Shown: positions 4,021 to 19,500, numbered from the stretch's first letter. The stretch is 20,030 nucleotides of DNA from Patescibacteria group bacterium (GCA_049301335.1 JBAQKV010000036.1:1-20030); one strand, 5' to 3'. Numbers and translations: made by a program. The notes: generated by a model not told the origin, from the sequence alone.

Positions 4021-4039
4021 GGGCGGATTCGAAAAAGGG

Positions 4040-4714
4040 CTACGGACGCGGGGCGTCGGAAGCCGCCTTCGCCTCCATGTCGGTCTTCCAAAGCTGTTTG
4101 TGGATCATTACCGTGTTCACCACGACGCCCAGCGCGCAAACGAGCGTGACGGCGGGAAGGACGTACTCGAAATACCCCGTCCCCCAATAGATGATGAACG
4201 TGTTGATGAGAATGAAGACGACCCTCGTTTCGGTGGGGCCGATGCCGTAATGGTAGATGCGGAACTCGTTCGTCGCGGCGAACGAAAGGAACGAGTTCAC
4301 CATGTACGCCCCAAGTACCGCCAGAAGGGCGAAGTACCATACTTCCAGACCGGCGGGCGAGAGCATGTAGCCCACGAAAACGAGCGAACAGAGAAAGACG
4401 TAGTCGAGGAAATGGTCCATGTAGAACCCCCATTTGACGAGCCCGGTATTCCTTTGCCGTCAAAGTTCCCCGTCGAAAAGGTCACTAACGTACTGGAGCG
4501 CGATCATGAGCGAAACGATCCAGAGCCAGCGGAGATCGGTCTTCACCGTCAGCCCCACCGCGACGTTGACGGCCGACCACGCGAGCGTCATGAACGTGAG
4601 GTGGTGGGTTTCGATCCACGCGGGAAGGCGCGGTACCGCCCAAAGCTTGAAATCGGTTTCGACCTTCGAGAGGACGGAACTTCCGAACTTCTTGTCTCAA
4701 GCGAACTTGGCCAT
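4040..4714 (-). CDS. CDP-alcohol phosphatidyltransferase family protein, with two in-frame UGA codons
   Basis: ATG 4714-4712, TAG stop 4042-4040, 224 codons. The track shows only the 3' part (4040..4420). My translation: MAKFA[UGA]DKKFGSSVLSKVETDFKLWAVPRLPAWIETHHLTFMTLAWSAVNVAVGLTVKTDLRWLWIVSLMIALQYVSDLFDGEL[UGA]RQRNTGLVKWGFYMDHFLDYVFL... The family signature D-G-x2-A-R-x8/9-G-x3-D-x3-D spans the second UGA (4460-4462). The first UGA is at 4697-4699. Confidence 0.85.
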
Positions 4715-4770
4715 GGCTGGTCGGTTAGGTTTTCGCGCAGTATACCGGAGTCTCGCCCGTTGGAAATGTT

Positions 4771-4812
4771 TTGACTTCCAACTGATTCATATATACTTGA
4801 GTTATCAAGTAT
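4771..4812 (+). promoter_or_regulatory. Putative marR promoter overlapping a perfect 20-bp palindromic operator
   Basis: -35 TTGACT (4771-4776), 15-nt spacer, -10 TATACT (4792-4797). The palindrome ATACTTGA-gtta-TCAAGTAT (4793-4812) overlaps the -10 and lies 16 nt upstream of the MarR ATG. It sits in the divergent intergenic region shared with the phosphatidyltransferase gene. Confidence 0.5.
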
Positions 4813-4827
4813 TAAATAACTAAATAT

Positions 4828-5256
4828 ATGAACGCTACCGAATTGGAATTCTTCCTCACCCTCGCCAAACTCGGCACCGTCGTGTCGAGAAAATTCGACG
4901 GAAGCCTCGGCGGACTCGGATGGAACGAGTTCATCATCCTCCACCGCCTGAACGAAGCCCCGGAGAAAAAACTCCGCCGCATCGACCTCGCGGAAAAAGT
5001 GGGACTGACGGCGTCCGGCATCACCCGCCTCCTCCTTCCCATGGAAAAAATCGGTCTCGTATCGAAAGAAGCCAACGCCGACGACGCCCGGGTGAGCCTC
5101 GTAGCCATCGCTCCGGGCGGCGAACGCAAACTCGAGGAAGCCCTCGACCGCATGCAGTACCTCACGGGGGAACTTTTGAAAAACCAGAATCCCGCGGACG
5201 TGGCGGCGCTTTCCAAGACCCTCGAATCCATCGGCGGCGCGGTCATGTGGAGATAG
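4828..5256 (+). CDS. MarR-family transcriptional regulator
   Basis: Track ORF, 142 aa. Winged-HTH core LRRIDLAEKVGLTASGITRLLLPMEKIGLVSKEANADDARVSLVAIAPGGERKLEEA is typical of MarR. TAG stop. Confidence 0.85.
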   Translation: MNATELEFFLTLAKLGTVVSRKFDGSLGGLGWNEFIILHRLNEAPEKKLRRIDLAEKVGLTASGITRLLLPMEKIGLVSKEANADDARVSLVAIAPGGERKLEEALDRMQYLTGELLKNQNPADVAALSKTLESIGGAVMWR

Positions 5257-5333
5257 TCCGGAACTCCGCGTTTGACTTTTTTCCAGGCGTCACCATATTC
5301 ACTTCATCCAACGATTCGTACAAGGAGGGAAAA

Positions 5334-5660
5334 GTGGATTCGAAACAAAAGCCCGTACCCGGTTTTCCGGGACGGTGGATCAAATTGGTGCTCGGCGAAA
5401 ACGTCGAAGTCGGGGTGGCCTATTTGGCCGGCCAAGTCTTCGAAAACGATCTCTACGGGTACCTGCTCGATTTCAAAATCATGGAGGAATACCGTAGGCG
5501 CGGCGCCGGAAAAAAACTCATGGCCGCCGTGAAATCCGCCGCGAAACGCGAAGGATGCAAACGCGTCGCCGTGATGATGCCGCACGAGGAACCTTTCTCG
5601 GGATGGCTCCAATACGTGGGTTTCGCCAAAGTGGGCGAAGCGCTCGTCATGGAAATCTGA
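5334..5660 (+). CDS. Small GNAT-family N-acetyltransferase (108 aa)
   Basis: GTG at 5334 is preceded by AGGAGGG with a 5-nt spacer. The part of track ORF 4920..5660 upstream of 5334 overlaps marR out of frame and is R/P-rich. The acetyl-CoA motif is present: EEYRRRGAGKKLMAAVKSAAKREGCKRVAV...VGFAKVGE. The ORF ends at TGA 5658-5660, 7 nt before a strong terminator (see findings). Confidence 0.7.
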   Translation: MDSKQKPVPGFPGRWIKLVLGENVEVGVAYLAGQVFENDLYGYLLDFKIMEEYRRRGAGKKLMAAVKSAAKREGCKRVAVMMPHEEPFSGWLQYVGFAKVGEALVMEI

Positions 5661-5667
5661 AGTTCCG

Positions 5668-5698
5668 AAATCCCCCGGTTCGACCGGGGGATTTTTTC
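5668..5698. terminator. Intrinsic terminator between convergent GNAT (+) and DUF1761 (-) genes
   Basis: Stem aaatcccccgg (5668-5678) / ccgggggattt (5684-5694), loop ttcga, followed by a T-run on the + strand. Confidence 0.8.
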
Positions 5699-5708
5699 AT
5701 CCGAAAGG

Positions 5709-6158
5709 CTAGCGTCCGCCGAGCGCGTATCCGGCAATCAAAAGCACCACGAGGCGGTACGATGCGGAAAGGGCGATTTTGGCGAACATCCATTTGCGGT
5801 CGTCGTTTCCCCAGAGGGTGGCCGTTACGTAGGTAGGAAGGACGAACCCCGCCCATACGAAGGCGCCCACGAGGTATCCGGGAACGTCCGGACGGATGGA
5901 GACGGCGTACGCGAGGGCCGTAACCATGGCCAGACATGCCGCGATTTCCGGAATGAGGAGCTTCCAAAGCCCCTGGGCCGCTTCTTCGGCGACTTTCTTG
6001 GGGATTTTTCCGTCCGCCCAGTGGATCTTCATCCAGAGTTTTCCGAAAAGCGGACCGAACCAGAGCGCTCATCCCGCCCAAGCGGCGAGGGAAATGCCGA
6101 CGATCGCCGGCCAATTGAGAGTATCCATACGAGTGGTGAAAAAGGATAAACGTGTCAT
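5709..6158 (-). CDS. DUF1761-like membrane protein, with one in-frame UGA
   Basis: ATG 6158-6156 is preceded by AGGAGG with a 5-nt spacer. Translation: MTRLSFFTTRMDTLNWPAIVGISLAAWAG[UGA 6069-6071]ALWFGPLFGKLWMKIHWADG... It continues in frame into track ORF 5709..6032. The xLWxGPLFGKxW block is characteristic of DUF1761. TAG stop. Confidence 0.75.
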
Positions 6159-6188
6159 GATATCCTCCTGGAAGAAGAAATCCAGCGT

Positions 6189-7259
6189 TTAGTTCCGGAT
6201 GATTTCGAAATCGGGCAATCCGTAGAAGCCGGCGTACCTTCGGGCTTCTTTTTCGAGTTCTTCGGAAGCCACCGAAAAACCCGGGAGGATTTCCGGAAAG
6301 ATGACGACCCGGTCTTTTTTGAACGTCCGCTTCCAACTCCCCACGATCTTTCCGCCCTTCATGACGAGCGGAAAGAATATCCCGTTGGAAGTGAAAAGCT
6401 TTCCATGGTGCTCGACGTCGGCCACGGGCGAACGGTCCTTGTACCCGAGAAAGTATTCGTCAAAACCTCCGAGAAGCCGGATTTCCTCGGATTTTTGAGA
6501 AAATCCCCCGGTTTTCGAAAAGTAATACGTTTTTCCGTTTTCGTTCAACGTTTCGAGTTCGTTCGAAATCAATGAAACGGCGGTTTTGCATTCGGTTTTT
6601 CCAAGTCCGCACCACCATGCCAAATCGTCCACCGTTGCGGGGGAATGGCTTCGGAAATACGTCCTCGCGAGTTCGGCGAGTTGTTCATCGTGGGAAAATT
6701 CGCCGGATTTCGGTATCCATTCCTCCAAAAGGACGAACGTTTCTTCTTTTTCTGTGGGCGGACCGAAACAGATGAGTCCGCGGGTGGCGGCGTAGCACGC
6801 GAGGTGGTACGTCCACTGCGTTTGCATCGGGATTCCGGCGTCTTTCAGGACTTCGGTCAATTCCGAACGCGAGAGCGCTTTTCCTGAGCGAAGCGCCAAA
6901 TCCATGGTTTCGAGCGCTTTTTCTGCGTGAGCGTCAGAAATTCAAAGGAATTCGCGCCTTTTCGCAAAGCCCGAGAGCGTCTTCGACGCGCAGAGCGAAA
7001 GGAGCCAGCGGACGTTTTTCGGGTCGACGTAATGGAGCGTTCCACGCATCGGCCACGTGCGCACTATGGCACCGCGAGAACAGGCGTCGCGGACGGCGGC
7101 TTCGGTCGAACCCTCGATTCTCGAACCGATCGCCCACGTAGCCTGGGGAATGTCTTGCGCCTGCATGCAGCCGTAGTGCGCCACCACTTCTTCCGGAGCG
7201 GAAAACCGCGGCACGGAAACGGCGTGCGAAGCGAGGCGGCGGGAAAGGAAATCGGGCAT
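6189..7259 (-). CDS. Winged-helix DNA-binding protein of the YcaQ/AlkZ (HTH_42, former DUF1006) family, putative DNA glycosylase, with one in-frame UGA
   Basis: ATG 7259-7257. Track ORFs 6942..7487 (from its internal MPDFLSRRL...) and 6189..6905 share one frame, joined across TGA 6942-6944: ...FAKRREFL[UGA]ISDAHAEKALETMDLALRSG... The N-terminus has the family motif HYGCMQAQD (Q-x-Q/D). TAA stop. 356 codons, a typical family length. Confidence 0.75.
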
Positions 7260-7270
7260 GGGCGGAACGG

Positions 7271-7897
7271 CTAATGGTGGCCGCTCGCGCGGAGGAATAT
7301 TTTCAACAGGTTCAAAAACAGGTTGAGAATGTCCAGATAGAGGCTCATGGAAATGTCTATGGCGGCTCACCACGTCCGGTCTCACGCGAGTTTTTGAAGC
7401 CTGTTGAAATCGTAGACGAGGTACAGCACGAAAAGCATCGATCCGAAATACGGGAGGACGAGGTCTACGAACGACGATTTCCACCAAAACGAATTCAGGA
7501 GGGAGAAGACGATGAACATGACGAGCGCCAAGGACAGGTACCCCTTAAGGAAACCGAACTCCATGCCGGAGAACATTCCGAGCCATCAGGTTCCCACGGT
7601 CGCCGCCGCCGTACATACGAGCGCCTGGGTAATCGCGTTTCCCTGCCCGTTCTGCGAAATCATGTTCATCAACGGCCCCAGCATCCAGCCGATCCAGGCC
7701 GAAAAAACGACCATCAGCAAGATGTTCACCGGGTAATCGTTACGGAAAGCCATGGCCGCGAACAAGATCGCCAACGATATGAGAAAGCTCGCGATTTTGC
7801 CGACTATGACGTCTTTGTTGAGCGCGGAAACCGCGGCGGTGACGAGAAGCATTCCCCCGACGATGGAGAAAGTGCGGACGAAGAGGATGTCGAACAT
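7271..7897 (-). CDS. Bax inhibitor-1 / YccA family membrane protein, with three in-frame UGAs
   Basis: Track ORFs 7586..7897 and 7382..7576 plus an unlisted tail share one frame: ...AATVGT[UGA 7586-7588]WLGMFSGMEFGFLKGYL...YDFNRLQKLA[UGA 7382-7384]DRTW[UGA 7367-7369]AAIDISMSLYLDILNLFLNLLKIFLRASGHH, then TAG (7273-7271). The SLYLDxxNLFLxLL block is the family's C-terminal signature and lies beyond two of the UGAs. Confidence 0.85.
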
Positions 7898-7980
7898 GGC
7901 CTGGGTGCGGAAAGGATTTTCAGCAAGGGTATCCGAAGGTGCGGAAAAGGAAAATCCGCTTTCCTTTCGTCGGGAACGGA

Positions 7981-8427
7981 CTAGGGCAATCCCACCGTCT
8001 TGAGCACCGTTTCGCTCACCGCAAAGCGGTGTTCCGGCTTTTGGACCACGTGTCCTTTGGCTTCCAGACGGTAGAGTTCGGTAAAAATGCTGGACATGGG
8101 AACACCTCCGTGTCCTGCGATTTCCTTAGCGGTCATCTCGTCTTTAAAAAGCATGATGAAGAGGATCTTCCTTTGCTGGTTGGAAAGCGCGATTTCCGGA
8201 AACGGGCTGAAGAAAACGTTGGAAACGACGGATACGTCCAACTCCGACACGTTGTCGAACCGCGGCAATTCGAAGGCTTTCAAGACCCGGGAAACCCTTT
8301 CGGAAACGATTTTCATTCTCCCGTCGCACGTATCTACCACGGCCTGGAGCTCTGATTCCAACGTCTGAAGCCGAGCTTTGGGAACTTCGACGATGGAAGC
8401 TCCCAGTCCGCCCAATGTAATGCTCAT
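7981..8427 (-). CDS. Winged-HTH (ArsR/TrmB-like) transcriptional regulator
   Basis: Track ORF 7981..8586. I start it at the internal ATG 8427 (MSITLGG...) because the upstream 53 aa are R-rich and overlap the SRPBCC-like remnant. C-terminal wHTH: LSNQQRKILFIMLFKDEMTAKEIAGHGGVPMSSIFTELYRLEAKGHVVQK. TAG stop. The start is uncertain. Confidence 0.6.
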   Translation of the reverse strand: MSITLGGLGASIVEVPKARLQTLESELQAVVDTCDGRMKIVSERVSRVLKAFELPRFDNVSELDVSVVSNVFFSPFPEIALSNQQRKILFIMLFKDEMTAKEIAGHGGVPMSSIFTELYRLEAKGHVVQKPEHRFAVSETVLKTVGLP

Positions 8428-8447
8428 ACCGCGTCTTTCGTAAGTTG

Positions 8448-8650
8448 TTAAACGAGACTTTCCACGTACTTCTTGAAATTCGCGAGGATGGCGCTCCAGC
8501 CGGCGGTCTGCATCTCCGGAGAGTGGATGTGTCAAGGTTCGCTTTCTTCGCCCAACCGACTCTCTACTCCCCGAGGGCTCCGGCATCCGTCCGGAGCTTT
8601 TCTTTTTCCATGAGAAAGTACCGTTCCCGGTACAGTCCCGGCGGCATCCT
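8448..8650 (-). pseudogene. Degraded remnant of an SRPBCC/AHSA1-like gene, spread over three frames
   Basis: Minus-strand pieces in three frames. First: ...MPPGLYRERYFLMEKEKLRTDAGALGE, then TAG. Second: ...RTLTHPLSGDA. Third: ...EMQTAGWSAILANFKKYVESLV, then TAA (8450-8448). The last two resemble the T.LTLTHxG ... GWxxxLxxLxxxLE C-terminus of AHSA1-type SRPBCC proteins. The expected N-terminal two thirds are missing where the AT-rich islet begins. Confidence 0.35.
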
Positions 8651-8762
8651 CAACGCCGAATGGCTGCAGAAATTGAGTTGATTCGAAAGGATGCTGGAGC
8701 CTCGGGAACGTAGAAAGTTAGGCGACTAAAAAGCGGGGAGCGGAAGCCAAATCGTTAGCTTC

Positions 8763-9194
8763 CTAAAATCCTCTGGTTTTTGCCTGAATTATGAACCATA
8801 CGGTTACCCCAATAAGAAAAAGTGGTCCAGCGATGAGAAGCATCCTAAATGGCAAACCCCATTCATAAACTGCGTTCGGAAATTCCGCTCTTAAATTCTG
8901 TGCTAACATACGAGGAACGATGCGGGATCAGAAAACGCTCAGTCATTGAAATTTTTTGTATGCCGTAAAATGCATTGCGTAAAAATGAATGCCATTGTAA
9001 ACGGCTATCAGCAGCGCCCATGCTATCATTATTCGGAGTCACTTCGCCAAGTCGTCGAGAAAGCCGAAACTTAAGGGAAATCGATAAGCGAGATATAGCA
9101 GCGCATAGAGTGTGATCCTCCCTAAAAATACTGCGTTGTCGAATATTCCGGCTTTACGAATATCGTCTTCCGACCACGGTACGTTCGTTTTCAT
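8763..9194 (-). CDS. Hypothetical membrane protein (143 aa, about 3 TM segments), with three in-frame UGAs; invisible in the standard-code ORF track
   Basis: ATG 9194-9192, TAG 8765-8763. I translated all 143 codons. There is no TAA or TAG in frame even though the region is AT-rich. TGAs at 9039-9041, 8943-8945 and 8928-8930. Product: MKTNVPWSEDDIRKAGIFDNAVFLGRITLYALLYLAYRFPLSFGFLDDLAK*LRIMIAWALLIAVYNGIHFYAMHFTAYKKFQ*LSVF*SRIVPRMLAQNLRAEFPNAVYEWGLPFRMLLIAGPLFLIGVTVWFIIQAKTRGF. No obvious SD and no family recognised. Confidence 0.55.
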
Positions 9195-9266
9195 GAGGAA
9201 AATTTATCAATATGGGAAAAGTGTAACGAAATTGGCGAATTCTGGATACGATTGTTAATCATTATC

Positions 9267-9358
9267 GGTTCGCACGGGCTCTTCCCCGCCGCCGAATGCG
9301 GCTTCGGACGCGGAGGTCGCGAACCAAATCATTGGCCCACTCGAATGCTTCGCATCCG
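9267..9358 (+). repeat. Direct repeat copy A (~92 nt)
   Basis: By hand alignment it matches 10052..10144 at about 86 of 94 columns, including identical runs of 36 nt (aatgcggcttcggacgcggaggtcgcgaaccaaatc) and 18 nt (tcgaatgcttcgcatccg). Confidence 0.85.
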
Positions 9359-9443
9359 AACTTCGAATTCAAGCAAACTTTGACAATACGAAAAATTCTT
9401 TTATTAACGGATTACTAAACAAATACGAAAGAGAGGCGACACA

Positions 9444-9983
9444 ATGGAACCGGTTTTCAAAATCCCCACGATCGGCGATCAAGTCGAACTGACGGAAAAT
9501 TGGACATTCCCGCTCTTTGAAGAACGGCGAAACAAGCCCTTGTTCAAAATCGTGGCTCCGGAACGGAAAATAACGAGACACCACATGGAGGAGCTCGATT
9601 ACATCCCGTTCCTCCGAGCGAACCGTCCTGCGAACTGTCCGCACATATTCGAACCTGGCGGTGAAAATCCCGAGAATCTCCGTCAGATTTGGGACGAATA
9701 CAAAAAAACCGAGAAATGGAAAAACTTCTCCCGTCTTTACTGGGAAGCCAACCATGCGTTCCAGTTGAAGAATTCAGTATCGGTTACCCTTCCCGTCGGA
9801 ACTTGCCTGGAAGTCGACCGGATATACATCCGTCAAAAATCGGGAGAATTCGATTCGGTAACGTTCAAGATCCGTACCGAAGAAAAATCCCCGATGACCA
9901 ACGTCAGGTTCTGGGTGAAACGGAGTGATGCCAACAATATCGTTGGCATTTACGTCCGAGCAGACGAATTCAATATGATTTGA
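9444..9983 (+). CDS. Hypothetical protein (179 aa), orphan ORF in the AT-rich islet
   Basis: Track ORF. GAGAGG lies 7 nt upstream of the ATG. A possible promoter is TTGACA (9380-9385), 16 nt, TATTAA. The sequence is protein-like (MEPVFKIPTIGDQVELTENWTFPLFEE...) and no family is recognised. It ends at TGA 9981-9983 followed by the 10003..10033 terminator. If UGA is read through, the frame stays open to TAA 10170-10172. Confidence 0.6.
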   Translation: MEPVFKIPTIGDQVELTENWTFPLFEERRNKPLFKIVAPERKITRHHMEELDYIPFLRANRPANCPHIFEPGGENPENLRQIWDEYKKTEKWKNFSRLYWEANHAFQLKNSVSVTLPVGTCLEVDRIYIRQKSGEFDSVTFKIRTEEKSPMTNVRFWVKRSDANNIVGIYVRADEFNMI

Positions 9984-10002
9984 CGGCTTCGAGCCGTTAC
10001 CG

Positions 10003-10033
10003 CCCCGTACGCAAGTACGGGGTTTTTCTTTTG
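10003..10033 (+). terminator. Rho-independent terminator after ORF 9444..9983
   Basis: Stem ccccgtac (10003-10010) / gtacgggg (10015-10022), GCAA loop, then tttttctttt. Confidence 0.85.
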
Positions 10034-10051
10034 TAAAATCAGGGTGTCACG

Positions 10052-10144
10052 GGTTCGCCCACGGCTCTTCCTCGCCGCCGAATGCGGCTTCGGACGCGGA
10101 GGTCGCGAACCAAATCGTTGGTTCGCTCGAATGCTTCGCATCCG
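10052..10144 (+). repeat. Direct repeat copy B (~93 nt)
   Basis: See copy A. It folds on paper into three consecutive hairpins: CCTCGC...GCGGAGG enclosing CCGAA-TGCGGC-TTCGG; GCGAACCAA-ATCG-TTGGTTCGC (perfect 9 bp); CGAATGC-TTC-GCATCCG. Confidence 0.85.
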
Positions 10145-10184
10145 TCCTCCGTTCGAGCCCCGGCATCGATAACCGCAATGAATC

Positions 10185-10218
10185 ACAAAAGCACCCCGCT
10201 TTCACGGGGTGCTTTTTG
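10185..10218. terminator. Bidirectional intrinsic terminator downstream of tRNA-Lys
   Basis: Stem gcaccccg (10191-10198) / cggggtgc (10205-10212), flanked by an A-run on the left and a T-run on the right, so it has a U-tract on either strand. Confidence 0.75.
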
Positions 10219-10226
10219 ATGATTCA

Positions 10227-10302
10227 TGGTGGGTTCGCCGGGGCTCGAACCCGGGACCTTGGCCTTAAAAGGGCCCTGCTCTACCGACTGAGCTACGAAC
10301 CC
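10227..10302 (-). tRNA. tRNA-Lys (anticodon UUU), CCA encoded
   Basis: Minus strand: GGGUUCG UA GCUC AGUCGGUA GAGC A GGGCC CUUUUAA GGCCA AGGUC CCGGG UUCGAGC CCCGG CGAACCC A CCA. It has a perfect 7-bp acceptor stem, D and T arms, and U33-UUU-A37 in the anticodon loop. It closely resembles E. coli tRNA-Lys. Confidence 0.93.
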
Positions 10303-10354
10303 GCGCTGCGGGGGTGTGGATAAAACTCGCGTCTCTCCACATCGGTGCGGGCCG

Positions 10355-10383
10355 ATTGTAAAGAAAAGATTCCCGAAGTCCAA
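10355..10383 (-). promoter_or_regulatory. Putative promoter for tRNA-Lys
   Basis: On the minus strand: TTGGAC (10383-10378), 17-nt spacer, TACAAT (10360-10355), about 50 nt upstream of the mature tRNA 5' end. Confidence 0.45.
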
Positions 10384-10463
10384 TTTTTTTCTCGCAAAAG
10401 AACCGCTTTAACAAATCCCCGGAAAGCCTCATCGGAAAAGGAAAAAATGGGGTGCTTCTTTTT

Positions 10464-10491
10464 TTGCAAACCACCCGTGAAATGATAAACT
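10464..10491 (+). promoter_or_regulatory. Putative promoter for the giant gene (extended -10)
   Basis: -35 TTGCAA (10464-10469), 16-nt spacer, TG-a-TAAACT (TG 10483-10484, -10 at 10486-10491), about 35 nt upstream of ATG 10527. Confidence 0.45.
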
Positions 10492-10526
10492 GGCGAGGAT
10501 AGCACGAATACGCTCAAAAACTCGGA

Positions 10527-13500
10527 ATGAACACTTCAAAAAGACTCTTCTCGGAACGTTTCAAACGGTACGTTTCGTCCCTTCTCATTTTCGCCATCCT
10601 CTTCGGGCAGACGGTACACATCCCGCTCCTCCAGACGACCAAGGCGGCCGAAGCCGAATATCCCAACCTCGTCGCGGTCCTCGTGAACGAGGGTTCGTTT
10701 TCGCGCGACGTCAAAAGCAAGCTCGAACGCTACGGCGAAGACGTGCAGGCCAATTTGGCCGGCAGTCGCGTTTCGATCATCTCGATCCCCGACGACACCA
10801 CGCCCGAAAAAATCGCCGCGCTTCTCGAAAAGCTCTACTACGAAGGCGACGGCAACGGGCTTTCGCGCCTCGTGGGAACCGTGCTCGTCGGTGATTTGCC
10901 GATGCCGGTCGTCCACCGCGGAGAAAAAACCTTCCTCTCGGTTTTCCCCTACGTCGATTTCGTAGACAAGTCTTTCGTCTACAAGGCCGACAAGGGATAC
11001 TACGAGTATTCCGAAACCCCTGCCGCCTCCGACACGCCCGAAATCTGGCACGGCATCGTCCGTTCCAATACCGGCGACAAGGATAAGGACGAAGGGCGCG
11101 TTTCCGCCTTCTTCGACAAGACCCACGAATACTACCAGAAGACCGGCCGCTTCGAGACTTCCAAGTTCCGCATCCAGCCGCACGTCTTCTATTTCGACTC
11201 CTACCACGACCAGCTTTCGAGCAAGTCCTCCGAATGGAAGTCGTACCAGCTCATGCTCCAGTACGCCGAAGAAATCGCGTACAACCGTTTCAACAAGCAC
11301 CTCGCCAAGACCGTCTACGAAGCGTACCAGGGATACATGGGCGCCGACGTTCCCGACGCTTCGGGCACCGATATCGGGAAAATCCTCGCCGCCAATACCG
11401 GCGCGACGCTCAATTTCGACAGCGCCCCCGACGTCCAAACCCGCGAACCTATCGAACAGTCCCTCAAGAAATTCTTCCAGGTCCTCAGCGAAAAATACTT
11501 GGGCGACATCCTCCGTTACGTCCATAATGCCGGACGCTACGGAACCGGCAACGACGTGCGCGTCGACGTTCCGGCCATCATCGTCGGCAAGAGCGACGAA
11601 CTCATGAAGCGCTCGCTCAAGGACGCCAACACCACCTTCGAAGACGCGGTCGACGCCCTCGTGAAGGGCGGTTTGGCGCGCAACGTCGCCGTGGGCCTGA
11701 CCTACAAGGTCGACGACGCTTCCGCGACCGCCGGCACCGCCGCTACCGAAACCGCTCCGGCGGCATCGGGAACCGCCAAGACTTCCAGCCGCACCTACCG
11801 GAATTTCATCTTCGGCAAGCAGGGCTCAGAGATCAACGCGGCCAACGAATGCACCATCGTCCGCGGATCGACCCTCCCCATCGAAGCGAACCGCGGTTTC
11901 AACGCGTACAACACCCAGGGCGACGTTTCGCTCCTCCAGAAAGACCTCCCGTCCGGCCGTTGTTTCCCGGGGAACGCCGCTGCCGCCATGTCCTTTTGGG
12001 GAAACAATTCGCCCCTCAAGCTCGACGTCAGCCGAAGCGGAGAAGGAATCATGACCCTCATCGGCAACGCCTACGACGGCTATATCAAGCCGACGTTCGA
12101 CATGGGCGGCGCCAAGGAAATCAAACTCGACGCGACCTCTGGAAAGAACGAAAAGGGGCTCTCGGTGGCGTCTCCGCTCGACTGTACCGCGCAGAAGCTC
12201 TGGATTTCGGATCCGTACGTCGACACGTCGGAACTCGGCGGCAAGTCCGGCTTCCCGGCGGAACGCCCGGGCCAGCCTATCGCCTGTACTACCGACACCG
12301 TCGGAAACTCGCTCAAGATCGACACGTTCGAAAACTACTTCTCCAAGGGGTTCCCGAGCGAAACCTGTACCACCCACCACCTCCTCCTCGACGGCGTCGA
12401 AACCAAAAAGGACGGTTCTTGGTGCGACGCGGGCGACGGCAGCTATGCCCACATCGACAAGACCTACTCGTACAAGAAGGTCCTTTCCGTCATCGAACAC
12501 AAATCCCCTACCGACCGGGAATACGGCGAAGAACTCAAGAATTTCCTCACCCCGTCCCTCCCGGCCGATAAGGACCGCTACGTCGACTTCGTCAGCGCCA
12601 AGGGAAACTACGTAAAGATTTCGTATCCCAACCTCTTCCGCATCTCCTTTCCGGAAGACGAAGACCTCACCGCCGAAAAGGCGCAGGCGAAGATTAAGGA
12701 AGTCCTCGACGCGAAGAGCGCCGAAATCAATGCCTTGATAGCTTCCGAGGCCGGATCCGGCCCACTCTACGACGCGCTGAAAAACGGAGCGTACCCGTCC
12801 GGCACCAAGATCGACCTCTACGGCCAGCTGTCTTCCAAAGAAGAAATGCTCCAGTCGGTTGTCGACGCCGTGGTATGGAACAATCTCGCCAACGCGACCG
12901 CCAAGTACGCCTACGTGCTCGAACACCACCTCGACATCGACGGCAATTCCAAATACCCGATCGCGAGCCATAAAGAAGACTACGAAGTTTCCTACGTGGT
13001 CGGAAAGGGCGACGCCCGAAACATGTACGTCAAGCTCGACCCCGCCGCCAAGGACGGACCGGGCGCCGAAGTTTCGGACATCCTCCGGAAATCCGCCGAG
13101 CAGCTCGCCGCCATCGACGCTTCCAACGTCGCTTCGGGCGGACCGGGCGAAAAGGCCGAATTCAAATGCTGACCTCCGGAAGGGGTCGAACTCCCCAAGT
13201 GGATGCCCGCGATTTTCTGCTGGCTCGGCTCCATCATGCCGCCGACCATCAGCGCCGGAAACTGTTCGCCGAATTCTTCCGTCGACATCGCCGACCTCAT
13301 CAACAAGCACTACGGCGCCGACAAGAACGGCAACGGGATCCCGGATTACCAAGAAGATTCCAACGGCAACGGCATCATCGACGGCGCCGAATACGTGAAG
13401 GACGGGGCCATCAAACTCTCCGCCACCCCCAAGCGCGCTCCGTACCGCGAAAGCGTGGCGCTCGCCGCCATCCTCGAAAACAAGGACGGCGTGCAGGTGT

Positions 13501-16500
13501 ACGTCGACTCGGTCAACGACGTTTCGTTCGACGTGACCAAGGTCGTCGCCTACTCCGGCGGCATCGCGACCGAAAAATACCGTCGCGGCGCTTCCGGCGA
13601 GCTCGGCAATTCGGTCAACGTCAAAGACTACGTCAATTTCGGGCAAATCAGCGTGAAGGCGAAGGAAGGCAAGGCCACCTACGTGCTCACCACCAAGGAC
13701 CGCGACGCCGACGTCTACTTCGACGCCACCGTCGCCCCCCGCGACAAGGACGGCAAGGCCGCGTTCGTAAAAACCTCCAACGAAGCCAAACTCGAAATCC
13801 GCGCGGAAACCCTCCAAATCGGGCTCACTTCTTCGGGCTCGTCCATTTCGAGCTATGCCAAAGCCGGCGAATATTCCGAAGTCTCGTTCCCCATCAAGAA
13901 GATCGGAAAGGGCGGAACGGCGCTCGCCGTAGCATTCCCGGTCACCGTCCGCGTCACCGACGACGATTCCGGAAAATCCGTCGCCGACCCGGTCGTCACG
14001 AACAAGGACGTCTGGACCTACACCGGAAACCTCCTCAAGCAGTCCGCGAACTACCGTTTCGAATTCACCGATAAGGAAGGCGTCACCGGCAGCCAGGTGC
14101 TCACCGTTACGGCGGGAGCGGCCACCAAGCTCGAACTCGCCCCGTCTTCGACGCTCTTCGTCAAGAACGAAACCGTCACGGTGCTCGCCAAGGTCGTCGA
14201 CCAGTACGGAAACTACGCCAAGGGCGATCTCGTCGACCTCCACGGCAAAATCGAAGGCGGCGGCTACTTCCTCGAAAACAAATCGGACGAACTGAACCGC
14301 TCGATCGTCGAAGGGTTCACCACGTTCGAAATTTCCACGAGCGACGGCGGAAAAAACCTCAAGTTCTCCCTCGAAATTAAAAACCGCAACCTCTCCGCGA
14401 CCACTTCGTTCCGTTCGCTCGACTATGCCAAGGCGGTGGTCGACGTGGAAAACCGCGACAAGATCGTCGTAGGCAAGGAGCCGCACGCGGTACGCATCAA
14501 GCTCGTCGACGGCGACGGAAAGATCCTCACCGGCTTCGACGGCGTGGCGGCGTTGAACTTCCCGCAGCTTTCGGGCGTTTTCGATACCAACTACCTCGCC
14601 ATCAAGGACGGCCTCTCCACTACGGGAGCGCTCCTCTCGCCCAAGTACGTCGCGGGGAAGGACCTTAAGATCGAAACCTACGTTCCAGGCGTCAAAGACG
14701 TGGAAGGCAACGTCCTCACCGTCTATCCGGACGTTCCGATGCGCGTTTCCCTCGAAACCGAAAAACCGGCCATCGAAGCTCGGACAGGCGAAACCGAAAC
14801 CGTCACCGCCAAGCTCTTCGACCGCTACGGCAACCTCGCGTACAACCATGCCGACGGCGCGTACTCCTCGAAGTTCTCGATTCCGGAACTCTTCCATAAG
14901 TACCTCCGTTTCCCGGGCAAGGTCTTCGCGAAGGATTCCCAATTCAAAGAAGGCATCGCGACCGTCACGGTGGAAACCACCCGCCTCCCGGGAAGCCCGT
15001 ACGTCATCGCCGAAGTCGCTCCGGGTCTCGAATCGAATTCGTACTCTGTCACCGACAAGTCCGGCTCGACCGTCACGATTTCCGGATATTCCAAAAACGC
15101 CGTCGTCGTCGACAGCTACTACCTTTGGAACAAGGAAAAGGTGAACAAGCTCCAATACAACGGGCTCTACACCGTCCTCGCCGGCGCCGATTACGGAAAC
15201 TTCACCGAACGCGACTATTTGGGCGGCGAGATCCTCTTCAACCCGGATTCCCGTTCCATGGCGGTCACCACCCTCGTGAACGACGCCACCGAACGCCAGA
15301 AGACCTTCTCGGTCACTCCGGGCGGAAAAACCGAACTCCCGTCGGGCGATTCGCTCGTCACCGCCGAAGTTTCGTCCGTCGCCGGACGCACCTCGGTAGG
15401 GTTCTACGACCCCTTCTATAAGGAATACGTCGCGCGCGCGTATTTCAATTTCGCCGAAGGATCCGACCGCATCGCCTGCAAGAACGACGGACAAGAAGGC
15501 ATCGACAACTGCGAAGTCCCCACCGGAAAGCCGTTCACCCTCCTCAAGGGCTACGGCGACGCCACCGCCGTTTCGCAGGGCGGACTCGCGCTCGTCCTCA
15601 AGGGGGCACGCATCCTCGAAATCGACGCGAACGGGGCCGTTTCCGCGCTTCCGAGCGTCCGTCTCGAAGTCGATAAGGACAATTCCAAGAACCTCCTCGC
15701 CGTCAAAGTCGTCTCGAACAACCAGGAAGTCGGATACTTCGCCGCCAAGCTCCGCGCCGATTCCGTCGTCCTCACCAAACCGGCCGAAATCAAAAAGGCC
15801 CTCGCCGAAAATCCGGGCAAGGTCATCGTCGAAGCCGTTTCCTCGCGCTACTTCCCGCAGGACTCCTTCCTCGGCAATTCTTCCCGCGGGGCGAAGGGAA
15901 TCTCGTTCTACTCGAACCGCGACCTCGACGGTTCGAACGCCGACCGGGAAATGATCGGCAGCGCCGACAAATCCGGTTTCGAAGAATACCGCGAAAAACA
16001 GGGCGTCGGATGGGAAGGACAGAACAAGACCCTCCTCGAATTCGCCGGAGGAAGTTCGGTAGGCGAAGCCACCCGTTTCAATTCGACCTATTCCACCGTC
16101 AACTTGGGCGACCCGGTGTTCCGCGTCAAGCAAGCGACCAACGAAGGTTCTTACGACCGTACCCTCGGCACCCGCCTCATGGACGCCGTGGGCGACACCA
16201 TCGAAAGCTATAAGAAGTTCGACTTCAACGGCGACTCCTACGAAGACCTCGTCGTCTTCTTCGAAAGCGGAAAAATCCGCCTCTTCGCGAACCTCCAGGG
16301 AAGCTATAAGGACATGGGCTACCTCGCCTACGTCTCGGACGCCGGAAAGGCCCGCAAGGGCGTCGGCGATTTCGCGGGCGACGGATATTCCGACATCGCG
16401 GCCGTCACCAACAAGGGGCAACTCATCATCCTCGACAATAAGGAAGGCAAATTCACCCGCAAGGAAGCCGTCATCGTCGACGATAAGGACAACCTCACCC

Positions 16501-19500
16501 AAATCCGGGGAAAGATCGTCCAACTCGAAACCTACGACATGGACGGCGACGGTAAGACCGACCTCGTCGTTTCCGACGAATCGGGCGAACTGAACGTCCT
16601 CTACGGCAAAGTCCTGAACGGCGAAACCGTCTTCACGAAGAATATCCTCGATTCCGATCTCGCCCTCCGCCTCAGTTCCGCGGAACGTAGCGACGGCGGC
16701 GCGGTCTATTTCGACGGCATCCCGCAGTTGAAAAACCCCACCGTTCCCGACCAGGCGCGCTATCTCGCCGAATCGAAGAGCCTCGCGGCCGCCGGCGAAG
16801 GCGAAACCATCCCGCCGGAAGTCATGAGGGCTTCGGTCGACGCCAAGCTCTACTACGTCCATGCCTACCAGGTAGCGGTCGAATACACCGGCGGAACCTT
16901 GAATTCGCAGCTCGAAGGCCGCCTGTCCGGCGCCATCGGCAACGATCCGGAAAACCCGAGCTCGCCCAACACCGCGCTCCAGAAGCAGGTCATGGACGCC
17001 ATGAGCGGTGCCCAGGCGGCATCCGCGAGCGGTTCGTTCAAGACCTCCGGAACGTACAACGAAACCCGTTACAAGACCTTCCTCAAGTCCGAATTCGCCG
17101 AAGACCGCGACCTGCGCGTCGTAAAGACGATGAAGGACGTGAACTCCGATCCGCTCAAGAGCGAGGATCCGGTGGAAATCACCGTCACTCTCGGAAACTC
17201 GGGTTCGACCACGATGAAGAACGTGGCGTACCTCGATTCTTTCGACAAGTCGATCTTCTCCGAAACCGACACCCCGTTCTATACGGTGAACGCTCCGTCG
17301 TATTCGCACACGGGCACCCTCGACATGCTTCCCGATTCGAGCTACGACTACCTCTTCGACGGGTTCGACCTCCGTCCGGGGGAAACCGCGACTATCAAGT
17401 ATTCGCTCAAGACCAATACCGTCCAGTTCGGCAAGTTCGTCGTAGGGCAGCTCGAAACCGACGATACCTACGGCGACGTCGCGATGCGCGCCAACAATAT
17501 CTGCTGAGAAGCGATGACGCTCTGGAAGAGCACCACTCCGCATCCGCGAAGCTTTTTGAAGACCACGCGCACTTTCGCGAAGAACGAAGGCGACGCGGGA
17601 GGACTCGCCGGCAAGTTCATCGACATGAACGCCAATGGCCAACCCGACTACATCGACGTGCTTTCGGCGAACGTTCCGCAATCGGACCTCGCCGACATGC
17701 GGAAGTACTTTTACGACTTGAACGGCGGCGGAACTTCGTACGACGCTTCGAAATTCGGCATCCTCCTTTTCCGCGAAGTCGTCGACCAAGTCAACGGCAC
17801 CGTCAATTCCGGCAACGTAGAAATCGCCCGTCTCGTCGCGAACGCCCAGAACGACAACCTCATGCGTTCGGCGGAACCGGGAACCGGCGACGTCACCGTT
17901 CCGGTGGCAGCTTCGGCCGTGAATTCGACCTACTCCGATTCTTCCAAAACCCTTACGGCCGGCGCTCAGGCGAGCACCGCTTCGGCTTCCCTTCCGGAAT
18001 GCGGAACCGTAGGATACAAGACCGTGACCGCGCCGGAAGCCATCGGTTGGAAACAAACCGCCGACGCTCCGAACGGACAGCTCGAAATCTTCTTCTCCGC
18101 GGGTACCCATTCCAAGGACGGGGGAAAGACCGCCGAACCGTGCCGCATGGCGTTCTCGTCTTCGTCGAACCCGAAATGGGGATCGAGCAAGGTCATCGGC
18201 GAAGGATGGAAAATCCTCACCAAATACACCTACAACTCCTACGTCCTCGCCGCGAAGACCGCCGACTACAAGAATTCGTCGAGCAACGTTCCGGACGACT
18301 ACGACAAGAAGGGCAGCGACCTTTACTCCTACGACCAGACCGCGGGCGGAGCCGTCTCCATCGACGGGCTCACGAGCGGCAACGTCGAAGCCATCGAAGC
18401 GGGCATCGACGAAATCGTCCAAGGCCTCGGCTGCGGATTCGGCGGCGGCGCGTGCATCTCGATGCCGTTCAACTGGGCGCCCCTCGCTCCGGGTTCGGCG
18501 CCGTCCATCATGGGCTTTCCCGCCGGTTCGCTCGCTCCGAGCACCGGTTTCCCGATTTTCTCGGCGCTCACGGGCATGTGGTACGGACCGTACTGCTGAC
18601 CTTCCGTTTGGCCGGCATCGCCGCTCGACCTCTGAAAGACGTGCGGCGACATCGGCGCCGGCGGTTACCTCGGCGACAAGGGCGCGGCGAACTTCTTCCG
18701 CTTCTACATCACCCCCACGCTCACCGGCGCGGTAGGTATCGCGGCGTGTTTCGGCGTGGTTCCTGCCGTCATGGGCAAGGTTCCGCCGCAGGGCGTTTCC
18801 CCGGTCGTTCCGGGCGGAAACTGCATCGTCGCGGCGAAGCCGCTCCTCGGATGCAAGGACGACGGTTCCGACGGCGACGTCTCGAGCCAGGGAATGTCCA
18901 ATTCCGACGGGTTCTTCAACGCGAATTCGTGTACTCCGAAAACGGAAAAACGTCCGCTCACTACTTCCGAGCGCTCGTACGTACGTTCGTACGTACGCGG
19001 AAACACCAACGACAAGTCGATCATGAGCGGTCTCACCGCCGCCCTCCCGTTCATCAGCGCGGGACCGAGCGGACGCGGAAGCTCTCCGGTAGTCGGCATC
19101 GGCATGGCATCGGGGCAGGATCCGAATTTCGAAGTCGGCATCAACCCCACCGCCCTCAAGAACTTCGACGTGGGCAACATCCTCAAGATCAAGCTCGACC
19201 GAGTCAGCGCATTCCCGGAATTCATCATGGACTGGGTCAACCGCCAGACCGAAGAAGTCGTCAACAAGCTTACGAGCCTCCCCACCCTCTACATCATCCT
19301 CCCGGACTTCTCGAAGATCTTCGAATCCGGCTGGAGCGGTTTCGCGGGCAAGCTCAAAGCGAAGTTCGACAAGGGTTCCTCGGGATACGATACCAACAAG
19401 GATTATTCGGTAGGCAGCTCGAAATACGCCAAGGGAGCTTCGGACAAGGCCAATTCGCTCCTCGCCGACAATAAGGACAACATCAACACCGTCGGAAAGA

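What the first reader, a model, noticed from the sequence alone, without database searches (positions are those of the whole stretch)
4040..18635. UGA is decoded as a sense codon: 14 in-frame TGAs in 6 otherwise intact genes (best fit translation table 25, UGA=Gly)
Seen directly, gene by gene. (i) CDP-alcohol phosphatidyltransferase 4040..4714(-) has TGAs at 4697-4699 and 4460-4462. The second sits inside the catalytic signature DLFDGEL[UGA]RQRNTGLVKWGFYMDHFLDY (D-G-x2-[A]-R-x9-G-x3-D-x3-D), so both halves of one motif flank the supposed stop in the same frame. (ii) DUF1761 gene: TGA 6069-6071 lies between an AGGAGG-preceded ATG and ALWFGPLFGKLWM. (iii) YcaQ/AlkZ-like gene: TGA 6942-6944 joins two track ORFs in frame. 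(iv) BI-1/YccA gene: TGAs at 7586-7588, 7382-7384 and 7367-7369, with the family signature SLYLDILNLFLNLL downstream of the last two. (v) Membrane ORF 8763..9194: TGAs at 9039-9041, 8943-8945 and 8928-8930. (vi) Giant ORF: TGAs at 13170-13172, 17505-17507, 18597-18599 and 18633-18635. No interruption is ever TAA, TAG or a frameshift, which argues against pseudogenes. Ten of 12 complete genes end in TAA or TAG, although TGA is normally the most common stop at this GC content. Established knowledge: UGA=Gly in Gracilibacteria/Absconditabacteria (table 25) and UGA=Trp in table 4 lineages. Inference: a UGA at the near-invariant small-residue (Ala) position of DGxxAR favours Gly over Trp. A GC-rich genome with this reassignment would itself be somewhat unusual. 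A standard-code annotation would call these genes split or pseudogenes.
Basis: partly seen in the sequence, partly recalled or inferred. Interest (0 to 1): 0.85.

Follow-up and report, generated by a model that had tools for sequence, protein, structure and literature searches.

The report
UGA read as glycine, GC-rich bacterium
[quoted passage not shown] A few of its genes still end in UGA, always right in front of a transcription terminator, and that is not explained.

Summary
All 14 TGAs lie in frame at the stated coordinates. The six ORFs hold 14 TGA and no TAA or TAG in 4248 codons.

The interpretation (UGA = Gly, table 25) is supported:
- Four of the six genes match Pfam families across their TGAs.
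- The TGA-bearing genes with diverged orthologues in independent assemblies (all but membrane ORF K) are under purifying selection (dN/dS 0.06-0.27).
- Of 50 TGA sites, 34 vary. The alternative is a GGN glycine codon at 26 and Trp at none.
- The DGxxAR-motif TGA is GGC in an orthologue.

This rules out pseudogenes, assembly errors, table 4 and selenocysteine.

The clade has 53-57% GC, at or above the published range for table 25 (0.21-0.53). A near relative is labelled "Peribacteria" and the contig itself "Patescibacteria group". NCBI's table-11 annotation ends the GNAT gene at its TGA.

Sense UGA is 5-8 times rarer than in typical BD1-5 genomes.

About six gene families, two of them in the window (5658-5660 and 9981-9983), end exactly at a conserved TGA followed at once by an intrinsic terminator. 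UGA may therefore keep an end-of-gene role, or these genes may rely on ribosome run-off.

RF2 and tRNA-Gly(UCA) could not be checked.

The parts
4040..4714 (-). CDP-alcohol phosphatidyltransferase gene (224 aa, stop TAG). It has sense TGAs at 4697-4699 (codon 6) and 4460-4462 (codon 85, the small-residue position of DGxxAR).
   Evidence: Pfam PF01066 matches residues 40-193. Codon 85 is GGC in the L005 orthologue and codon 6 is TGA there too. PDB 4mnd has Ala at that column. dN/dS is 0.06. The gene is absent from L001, L002, L004 and L013.
5709..6158 (-). DUF1761 gene (149 aa, stop TAG) with a sense TGA at 6069-6071 (codon 30).
   Evidence: Pfam PF08570 matches residues 18-147. The TGA is conserved in L001, L003, L005 and L013. 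AGGAGG lies 5 nt before the ATG. dN/dS is 0.23-0.27.
6189..7259 (-). AlkZ/YcaQ-like DNA glycosylase gene (356 aa, stop TAA) with a sense TGA at 6942-6944 (codon 106).
   Evidence: Pfam PF06224 matches the full profile 1-329. Codon 106 is GGC in L002 and GGA in L005. It aligns with Gly in AlkZ 5uuj and in homologues. dN/dS is 0.10-0.14.
7271..7897 (-). BI-1/YccA family membrane protein gene (208 aa, stop TAG). It has sense TGAs at 7586-7588 (codon 104), 7382-7384 (codon 172) and 7367-7369 (codon 177).
   Evidence: Pfam PF01027 matches profile 5-207 of 207. All three TGAs are conserved in L001. In homologues, column 172 is Gly in five of the seven that cover it, column 104 is mostly Ala, and column 177 is variable (S/A/G/N/D).
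8763..9194 (-). Hypothetical membrane ORF K (143 aa, stop TAG) with TGAs at 9039-9041, 8943-8945 and 8928-8930. This is the weakest of the six genes.
   Evidence: Only the conspecific contig L003 has it, with identical TGAs. There is no Pfam or NCBIfam match. It lies in a lower-GC stretch.
10527..20030 (+). Giant surface-protein gene, more than 3168 codons, running off the window end. It has sense TGAs at 13170-13172 (codon 882), 17505-17507 (codon 2327), 18597-18599 (codon 2691) and 18633-18635 (codon 2703).
   Evidence: It has FG-GAP repeats. The orthologue in L009 is 4382 codons stop-to-stop with 19 TGAs. Codons 2327 and 2703 are GGN in L009, codon 2691 is ATC, and codon 882 is TGA in both. 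Column 2327 is Gly in all seven other homologues that cover it.
5334..5660 (+). GNAT acetyltransferase gene (108 aa as called) whose coding sequence ends at TGA 5658-5660.
   Evidence: Pfam GNAT families reach the C-terminus. Read-through would add 162 codons antisense to the DUF1761 gene. The terminal TGA is kept in L001, L003, L004 and L013, with dS up to 0.83 and dN/dS 0.09-0.27. All public homologues are 108-110 aa.
5668..5699 (+). Intrinsic terminator, AAATCCCCCGG-ttcga-CCGGGGGATTT plus a T-run, 7 nt after the GNAT TGA. It is shared with the convergent DUF1761 gene.
   Evidence: Sequence and fold. The hairpin is kept in L001, L004 and L013. The loop differs in length and sequence between genomes, and L004 extends the stem by one G-C pair. 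The downstream frame is therefore not conserved.
9444..9983 (+). Hypothetical gene (179 aa) whose coding sequence ends at TGA 9981-9983.
   Evidence: The orthologue in L002 has TAG at the same codon and the one in L013 has TGA. dN/dS is 0.12-0.14 at dS 1.0-1.3. Read-through would add 62 codons.
10002..10033 (+). Intrinsic terminator, GCCCCGTAC-gcaa-GTACGGGGT plus a T-run, 18 nt after the TGA at 9981-9983.
   Evidence: Terminator scan and sequence. The equivalent hairpin is present in L013.
10227..10302 (-). tRNA-Lys(UUU), the only tRNA in the window. It is not a UGA decoder.
   Evidence: ARAGORN and Rfam. Its position next to the giant gene is conserved in L009 and L011.
4828..5256 (+). MarR regulator gene (stop TAG), directly upstream of GNAT on the same strand (probable operon). 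It has no TGA in the window, but codon 98 (GGC here) is TGA in L004.
   Evidence: Pfam and codon table. In L004 the same gene pair carries an internal UGA in marR and a terminal UGA in GNAT.

Best explanation
The organism translates UGA as glycine throughout its genes (genetic code 25). It presumably does so with a tRNA-Gly carrying anticodon UCA, as in Gracilibacteria (BD1-5) and Absconditabacteria. The six 'interrupted' genes are intact, functional genes.

Shown:
- UGA is a sense codon.
- Its meaning is Gly.
- This holds in a whole clade of GC-rich (53-57%) uncultured bacteria, seen in independent assemblies.
- The closest homologues of two of its proteins come from known table-25 lineages.

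Inferred, not shown:
- The decoder tRNA.
- Loss of release factor 2.

One added feature is unresolved. About six gene families keep a TGA exactly at their natural 3' end, and only where an intrinsic terminator follows at once. The explanation I favour slightly is that RF2 is gone. Ribosomes would read this UGA as Gly, run a few codons to the 3' end of the transcript, and be released by a rescue system such as tmRNA or ArfB. A TGA stop would then be tolerated only at transcript ends.
For: - In-frame TGAs sit inside family matches that span them.
- The window has 14 TGA against 0 TAA/TAG in 4248 codons. Confident clade genes have 80 TGA against 0 in 17,468 codons.
- dN/dS is 0.06-0.27 in the TGA-bearing genes that have diverged orthologues.
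- The same TGAs appear in assemblies from different sequencing runs and MAGs.
- TGA alternates with GGN at 26 of 34 variable sites and never with TGG.
- HisD in L001 has TGA at invariant Gly positions (KIGxAQA, GFxTES, IFxPGN). RecG in L009 has TGA in DEQHRFxV and GRVGRx.
- AlkZ homologues at 57-67% identity are labelled Gracilibacteria or 'gcode 4'. Those translated with table 4 carry W at Gly columns. A 55%-identity cluster includes Absconditabacterales.
- For the run-off reading: terminal TGAs occur at about 6 of 14 terminator-followed gene families and at 0 of about 45 others (my count).
- The base after sense TGAs does not differ from that after GGN codons (p = 0.51), so there is no sign of selection against RF2 competition.
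Against: - No tRNA(UCA) and no statement about prfB could be obtained. Only tRNA-Lys was found in about 150 kb of clade and control sequence.
- A strict table-25 genome should have no gene ending in UGA, yet three terminal TGAs are conserved over dS 0.8-1.0. One alternates with TAG, as synonymous stops do. My rough estimate of retention by neutral drift is P about 0.005-0.01.
- Sense UGA is used at only 2.8-4.6 per 1000 codons, against 21-22 in BD1-5 control loci. Some cost of UGA decoding would produce the same pattern.
- One window TGA (giant ORF codon 2691) aligns with Ile/Val, not Gly.
- A close relative is named Peribacteria, a group regarded as using the standard code.
Confidence: 0.88

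Rival explanations
1. Dual-meaning UGA. The clade decodes UGA as Gly inside genes but UGA still ends translation at some gene ends. Either RF2 is retained and competes with tRNA-Gly(UCA), giving a stable ambiguous intermediate, or termination depends on position close to the transcript 3' end.
For: - GNAT ends in TGA in five contigs (W, L001, L003, L004, L013), with dS up to 0.83.
- The 9444-9983 gene ends in TGA in W and L013 (dS 1.0) and in TAG in L002.
- A 123-aa gene ends in TGA in L001, L002 and L013.
- The sequence after these TGAs evolves as an RNA hairpin with frame-shifting indels, not as protein.
- These genes are under purifying selection, dN/dS 0.09-0.35.
- Sense UGA is 5-8 times rarer than in BD1-5 controls.
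- In L004, marR and the GNAT gene just downstream carry a sense UGA and a terminal UGA respectively.
Against: - The terminal TGAs found all lie at terminator-followed genes and none inside operons. Plain RF2 termination does not predict this.
- There is no +4 context difference between sense TGA and GGN.
- A gene with 19 internal UGAs (L009) would suffer badly from any appreciable termination.
- No bacterium is known to work this way (my knowledge).
- The sample is small, about six families.
Confidence: 0.25
2. UGA is read as tryptophan (translation table 4), by a tRNA-Trp(UCA) or a UGA-reading tRNA-Trp(CCA).
For: Table 4 is the commoner bacterial UGA reassignment and has recently been reported in other Patescibacteria. 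Hodgkinia shows it can occur at 58% GC.
Against: None of 34 variable TGA sites has TGG as the alternative, while 26 have GGN. TGAs sit at invariant Gly positions of HisD, RecG and AlkZ, and at the small-residue position of DGxxAR.
Confidence: 0.02
3. The genes are pseudogenes, or the TGAs are sequencing or assembly errors, and the standard code applies.
For: Under table 11 the genes are split, which is how public pipelines call them.
Against: - Only TGA ever interrupts, where about 40 TAA/TAG would be expected.
- There are no frameshifts.
- dN/dS is 0.06-0.27 across the interrupted genes.
- Identical TGAs appear in independent assemblies, and many are conserved at dS of 0.4 or more.
Confidence: 0.01
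4. Site-specific recoding, meaning selenocysteine insertion or programmed read-through at individual UGAs in a standard-code organism.
For: Several window UGAs follow Cys (KCxP, ICxE, YCxP in the giant ORF), which looks superficially like redox motifs.
Against: About half of all genes carry UGAs, 80 in 17,468 codons. Their orthologous partners are GGN and never TGC or TGT. They include membrane-helix and loop positions. That is too many sites, and too varied, for signals in the mRNA at each one.
Confidence: 0.01

Closest known systems
Translation table 25: UGA = Gly in Gracilibacteria (BD1-5) and Absconditabacteria (SR1), now GTDB class JAEDAM01
   Same: - UGA is a sense codon at glycine positions, and all other stops are TAA or TAG.
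- The genes are fragmented by table-11 callers.
- The closest AlkZ and giant-protein homologues come from these lineages.
- It has giant surface proteins. The tRNA-Lys plus giant-gene arrangement is shared with a 1.27-Mb genome of 45% GC (L011).
   Different: - GC is 53-57%, against the published 0.21-0.53.
- UGA usage is 2.8-4.6 per 1000 codons, against 21-22 in two BD1-5 control loci.
- A few genes still end in UGA, and none of about 46 control genes does.
- Public labels place it in Peribacteria or the 'Patescibacteria group', not Gracilibacteria.
Table-25 genomes placed in GTDB class Gracilibacteria (the former Peregrinibacteria side): orders JAYELJ01 and GCA-2401425, reported in the gTranslate preprint (10.64898/2026.05.24.727570)
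   Same: These are Patescibacteria outside the expected class JAEDAM01 whose genomes nevertheless show UGA reassignment. The taxonomy-based expectation for them is table 11.
   Different: I could not establish whether the window's clade is one of those orders. That paper treats them as tree misplacements and does not describe genes that end in UGA.
Position-dependent stop codons in eukaryotes (Condylostoma, Parduczia, Blastocrithidia), where UGA is sense inside genes and a stop near the mRNA 3' end
   Same: The pattern resembles it only for the terminal TGAs. The same triplet is sense internally, and it sits at gene ends only when the transcript end is a few nucleotides away. This comparison rests on my own knowledge, not on a tool result.
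   Different: Those systems rely on the eukaryotic release factor and poly(A)-binding protein. No bacterial equivalent is known, and termination at UGA is not shown here.
Translation table 4: UGA = Trp (Mycoplasmatales, Hodgkinia, some Minisyncoccia and Eggerthellaceae)
   Same: UGA is reassigned from stop to sense. Hodgkinia shows that this is possible at about 58% GC.
   Different: The amino acid is Gly, not Trp.

Membership tests
Genetic code 25 organism (UGA = Gly) | UGA occurs in frame inside conserved, functional protein-coding genes | tested here: met
   There are 14 in the window and 80 in 17,468 clade codons. Pfam matches span them and dN/dS is 0.06-0.27.
Genetic code 25 organism (UGA = Gly) | UGA columns correspond to glycine in orthologues and family alignments | tested here: met
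   GGN is the alternative at 26 of 34 variable sites. TGAs sit at invariant Gly of HisD, RecG and AlkZ. The other partners are scattered and mostly small residues.
Genetic code 25 organism (UGA = Gly) | A tRNA with anticodon UCA and glycine identity elements (G1:C72, C2:G71, G3:C70, U73) | not testable with these tools
   Only tRNA-Lys(UUU) is present in the window and in 12 related or control loci. The whole MAGs could not be read.
Genetic code 25 organism (UGA = Gly) | Release factor 2 (prfB) is lost | not testable with these tools
   No prfB-bearing sequence of the clade could be reached.
Genetic code 25 organism (UGA = Gly) | No gene uses UGA as its stop codon | tested here: not met
   The coding sequence of about six families ends exactly at a TGA with no TAA/TAG before the following terminator. 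They are GNAT (window 5658-5660), the hypothetical gene at window 9981-9983, a 123-aa gene, a PadR-like gene and two genes in L005. Whether translation actually stops there is unknown.
GTDB class JAEDAM01 (BD1-5 + Absconditabacterales) | Phylogenetic placement inside the class from marker genes | tested here: inconclusive
   No marker-gene tree was possible. The nearest AlkZ and giant-protein homologues come from table-25 Gracilibacteria and Absconditabacterales. However, the 93%-identical GTDB representative is titled 'Candidatus Peribacteria bacterium'.
Genetic code 4 organism (UGA = Trp) | UGA columns correspond to tryptophan | tested here: not met
   TGG is the alternative at 0 of 34 variable sites.
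Selenoprotein recoding | UGA aligns with Cys or Sec in homologues, and a SECIS hairpin follows each UGA | tested here: not met
   No Cys partner appears at any of the 34 variable sites. SECIS elements were not searched for individually. Hairpins were seen only after terminal TGAs, and those are T-run terminators.

The most novel reading that the evidence does not exclude
In this GC-rich clade UGA has two meanings. It is glycine inside genes, and it is a working end-of-gene signal where the transcript ends a few nucleotides downstream. Two mechanisms could produce this. RF2 may be retained alongside a UGA-decoding tRNA-Gly, which would make this a living 'ambiguous intermediate' or a partial reversion of code 25. 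Alternatively there may be a bacterial form of position-dependent termination.
Probability: 0.25. Interest if true: 0.9.

Novelty: new member of a known kind. Interest (0 to 1): 0.6.

Why it matters
Practical. This contig and its relatives are filed under names (Patescibacteria group, Peribacteria) for which pipelines assume table 11. About half of their genes are therefore split or truncated in public databases. Some relatives were translated with table 4, which puts Trp where Gly belongs.

Conceptual. UGA reassignment is usually explained by AT pressure driving UGA to extinction. A clade at 53-57% GC with sparse sense UGA stretches that picture for table 25.

The conserved gene-end TGAs in front of terminators offer a direct way to ask how a stop codon loses, or keeps, its stop function. 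If RF2 is still present, the clade is a natural ambiguous intermediate. If RF2 is absent, these genes show that bacteria can do without a stop codon at transcript ends. Looking for prfB, tRNA(UCA), tmRNA and arfB in MAGs that already exist would settle which applies.

Tried and rejected
- Exact look-up of the cyclophilin found nothing on record.
- A JGI metagenome scan with the AlkZ alignment found no relative.
I then used the exact 103-aa N-terminal BI-1 fragment, and the homologues served for column reading.
- ARAGORN and Rfam on all loci found only tRNA-Lys: no tRNA(UCA) and no tmRNA.
- NCBIfam gave nothing for ORF K, the 9444-9983 protein or the 123-aa protein. Pfam gave nothing for ORF K, the 9444-9983 protein, the 123-aa protein or the L005 8433-8867 protein.
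- The listing of cluster members gave almost no names.
- I considered querying RF2 in the protein database. I rejected it because the top-120 list cannot be limited to this clade.
- I rejected the minus-strand 2735-codon ORF as the real giant gene, on composition, skew and homology.
- I rejected selenocysteine, pseudogenes and table 4 (see the rival explanations).
- I tested whether the base after sense UGA avoids strong RF2 contexts. There was no signal.
- The built-in terminator scan missed the GNAT terminator because of its T-run rule. It was confirmed by reading and folding the sequence.
Full report
**1. What is in the window**

The window is 57% GC and appears to be a whole NCBI MAG contig. 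The GNAT protein cluster lists a longest contig of exactly 20,030 bp and the source name [quoted passage not shown].

"Stop" is the codon ending the coding sequence.

| Coordinates | Strand | Gene | In-frame TGAs | Stop |
|---|---|---|---|---|
| 3-2108 | - | secreted CAP/DPBB protein, cut by the window start | 0 | outside window |
| 2118-2630 | - | cyclophilin | 0 | TAA |
| 2990-3916 | - | FabI-like reductase | 0 | TAA |
| 4040-4714 | - | CDP-alcohol phosphatidyltransferase | 2 | TAG |
| 4828-5256 | + | MarR | 0 | TAG |
| 5334-5660 | + | GNAT | 0 | TGA |
| 5709-6158 | - | DUF1761 | 1 | TAG |
| 6189-7259 | - | AlkZ-like glycosylase | 1 | TAA |
| 7271-7897 | - | BI-1 | 3 | TAG |
| 7981-8586 | - | TrmB-like regulator | 0 | TAG |
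| 8763-9194 | - | membrane ORF K | 3 | TAG |
| 9444-9983 | + | hypothetical | 0 | TGA |
| 10227-10302 | - | tRNA-Lys(UUU) | n/a | n/a |
| 10527 to beyond 20030 | + | giant ORF | 4 | outside window |

**2.

Pfam matches run straight across them.

The six ORFs contain 14 TGA and no TAA or TAG in 4248 codons. The other five frames of the same DNA hold 253 TGA, 130 TAG and 68 TAA. A non-coding frame would therefore carry about 40 TAA/TAG, and 14 of 14 interruptions being TGA has P = 3e-4.

The giant gene is on the + strand. The 2735-codon stop-free ORF on the minus strand (11826-20030) is an antisense shadow.

**3. Related sequences**

A genome scan with FabI found two GTDB species representatives:
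- L001, CAYZVC010000003.1, "uncultured Candidatus Peribacteria bacterium", 93% nucleotide identity.
- L002, JASDUA010000041.1, "Patescibacteria group bacterium", 87% identity.

Protein searches and exact look-ups added Logan contigs from other sequencing runs:
- L003 and L012, the same species at 99% identity.
- L004, L005, L009, L010 and L013.

All of these loci have 53-57% GC.

**4. Not pseudogenes, not errors**

The same TGAs recur in independent assemblies. For the TGA-bearing genes that have diverged orthologues (all but ORF K), dN/dS is 0.06-0.27 at dS between 0.16 and 1.16. In 17,468 codons of confident clade genes there are 80 in-frame TGA and no TAA or TAG.

**5. The amino acid is glycine**

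I aligned orthologues codon by codon. Fifty sites carry TGA in at least one genome, and 34 of them vary. The alternative is GGN at 26 sites, Ser at 3, and single cases of other residues. It is never TGG and never Cys.

The window's own TGAs compare as follows.

| Gene and codon | Partner in orthologues or homologues |
|---|---|
| CDP-OH codon 85 (the DGxxAR position) | GGC in L005; Ala in PDB 4mnd |
| CDP-OH codon 6 | TGA in L005 too |
| AlkZ codon 106 | GGC and GGA in orthologues; Gly in AlkZ 5uuj |
| BI-1 codon 172 | Gly in most homologues |
| BI-1 codon 104 | Ala |
| BI-1 codon 177 | variable |
| Giant codon 2327 | Gly in every homologue that covers it |
| Giant codon 2703 | Gly in the closest relatives, Ala or Ser further out |
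| Giant codon 2691 | Ile/Val, the one clear non-Gly column |
| Giant codon 882 | TGA in L009 too |
| DUF1761 codon 30 | TGA throughout |
| ORF K codons 52, 84, 89 | no informative orthologue |

In the relatives, TGA sits at textbook glycines:
- HisD: KIGxAQA, GFxTES and IFxPGN.
- RecG: DEQHRFxV and GRVGRx.

**6. Who is it?**

The closest full-length AlkZ homologues (57-67% identity) are labelled Candidatus Gracilibacteria or "uncultured bacterium (gcode 4)". Several were translated with table 4 and show W at glycine columns, for example WPMRWT and LLWWFDEYFLWYKDR. A 55%-identity cluster includes an Absconditabacterales protein. The only named relative of the giant protein is also from Gracilibacteria.

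The organism therefore belongs to, or sits next to, the known table-25 radiation.

The literature says the following:
- Table 25 is confined to Gracilibacteria/JAEDAM01 (PMC13293708).
- Its GC range is 0.21-0.53 (PMC8629427).
- A 2026 preprint notes a few table-25 genomes placed on the Peregrinibacteria side of the GTDB tree (10.64898/2026.05.24.727570).

NCBI's Peribacteria is a class of the Peregrinibacteriota. I could not build a marker-gene tree, so the exact placement stays open.

**7. What differs from ordinary table 25**

(a) GC content is at or above the published upper bound.

(b) Sense UGA is rare. It is used at 2.8 per 1000 codons in the window's training genes and 4.6 per 1000 across the clade. 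Two BD1-5 control loci (L007 at 37% GC and L008 at 43% GC) use it at 21-22 per 1000.

(c) Some genes end in TGA.
- GNAT stops at 5658-5660, exactly where the GNAT fold ends. Read-through would add 162 codons antisense to the DUF1761 gene in the window, and 217-226 different codons in L001 and L004.
- Seven nucleotides after that TGA comes a perfect intrinsic terminator.
- The gene at 9444-9983 ends in TGA where its L002 orthologue has TAG. A terminator follows 18 nt later.
- The relatives show the same pattern at a 123-aa gene (L001, L002, L013), at a PadR-like gene where the TGA lies in the loop of the terminator hairpin (L004), and at two genes in L005.

The terminal TGA of GNAT is kept in five contigs (dS up to 0.83), and that of the 9444-9983 gene in W and L013 (dS 1.0). 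The sequence just after these TGAs evolves as a hairpin, with loop indels that break the frame. The genes themselves are under purifying selection, with dN/dS of 0.09-0.35.

By my count, terminal TGAs occur at about 6 of 14 terminator-followed gene families and at none of about 45 other gene ends. About 46 control genes in BD1-5 loci show none.

**8. Reading the terminal TGAs**

There are two readings.

(i) RF2 is lost. Ribosomes insert Gly, run 5-17 codons to the transcript end and are rescued. A TGA "stop" would then survive only at transcript ends. This explains the exclusive link with terminators, and it fits the lack of any +4 context bias at sense UGAs (p = 0.51).

(ii) UGA still terminates to some degree, through retained RF2 or position-dependent termination. 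This better explains three things: the conservation of the triplet (I estimate P of about 0.005-0.01 for neutral retention), the TGA/TAG interchange, and the low use of sense UGA.

I give (i) roughly 0.6 and (ii) roughly 0.25. The rest goes to tolerated long extensions or to chance. The data in hand cannot decide, because prfB, tRNA(UCA), tmRNA and arfB could not be looked for.

**9. Verdict**

- The interpretation (UGA = Gly, table 25) is supported and Trp is excluded.
- This is a new, GC-rich, mislabelled and mis-annotated member of a known kind.
- One real loose end, the conserved UGA gene ends in front of terminators, could turn out to be ordinary tolerance or something new about how a stop codon is given up.

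Noticed in passing
window 11826-20030 (-): A 2735-codon ORF with no stop of any kind lies antisense to the giant gene. It is arginine/valine/glycine-rich junk, but under table 11 it is the longest ORF in the window and could be miscalled as the gene.
   Followed up: yes
window 4021-4764; L001, L002, L004, L013: The CDP-alcohol phosphatidyltransferase gene is present in the window, in L003 and in L005. It is cleanly absent between FabI and MarR in L001, L002, L004 and L013. In the 99%-identical L003 its last residues differ (QDSRP* against DAPRP*), next to an unaligned stretch at window 4037-4058.
   Followed up: partly
window 8700-10500: A lower-GC stretch (47-50%, against 55-62% elsewhere) lies next to tRNA-Lys. 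It holds ORF K and the 9444-9983 gene, neither with any family match. In relatives an AHSA1-family gene sits where ORF K is. This may be a variable island at the tRNA.
   Followed up: partly
window 10527-20030; L009 803-13948; L011: The giant protein is about 4380 codons in L009. It has FG-GAP repeats and a conserved Cys/Gly-rich module (GLGCGFGGGxC...NWAPLAPG...GGNC...CKDDGSDG) with no Pfam family. Its position next to tRNA-Lys(UUU) is kept in L009 and in a 45%-GC, 1.27-Mb genome (L011).
   Followed up: partly
proteins P0002, P0004, P0006, P0012, P0026 (AlkZ homologues): Public protein entries from table-25 organisms were translated with table 4. They carry Trp at conserved glycine columns. 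Other entries are truncated at TGA by table-11 calling. Both kinds pollute family alignments.
   Followed up: yes
L004 13705-13998 and 13168-13494: In L004, marR has a sense TGA (codon 98, GGC elsewhere) and the GNAT gene just downstream on the same strand ends in TGA.
   Followed up: partly
window 5668-5699; L001 17916; L002 18002 and 20058; L009 after 18939: Many terminators in the clade share nearly the same stem (AAATCCCCCGG...CCGGGGGATTT), whether the gene before them ends in TAA, TAG or TGA. This suggests a recurrent terminator module.
   Followed up: no
window 10190-10216: A further hairpin with a T-run (GCACCCCG-ctttca-CGGGGTGC-TTTTT) lies between the 9444-9983 gene's read-through frame stop (10170-10172) and the 3' end of tRNA-Lys. 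It is probably the tRNA's terminator read on the other strand.
   Followed up: no
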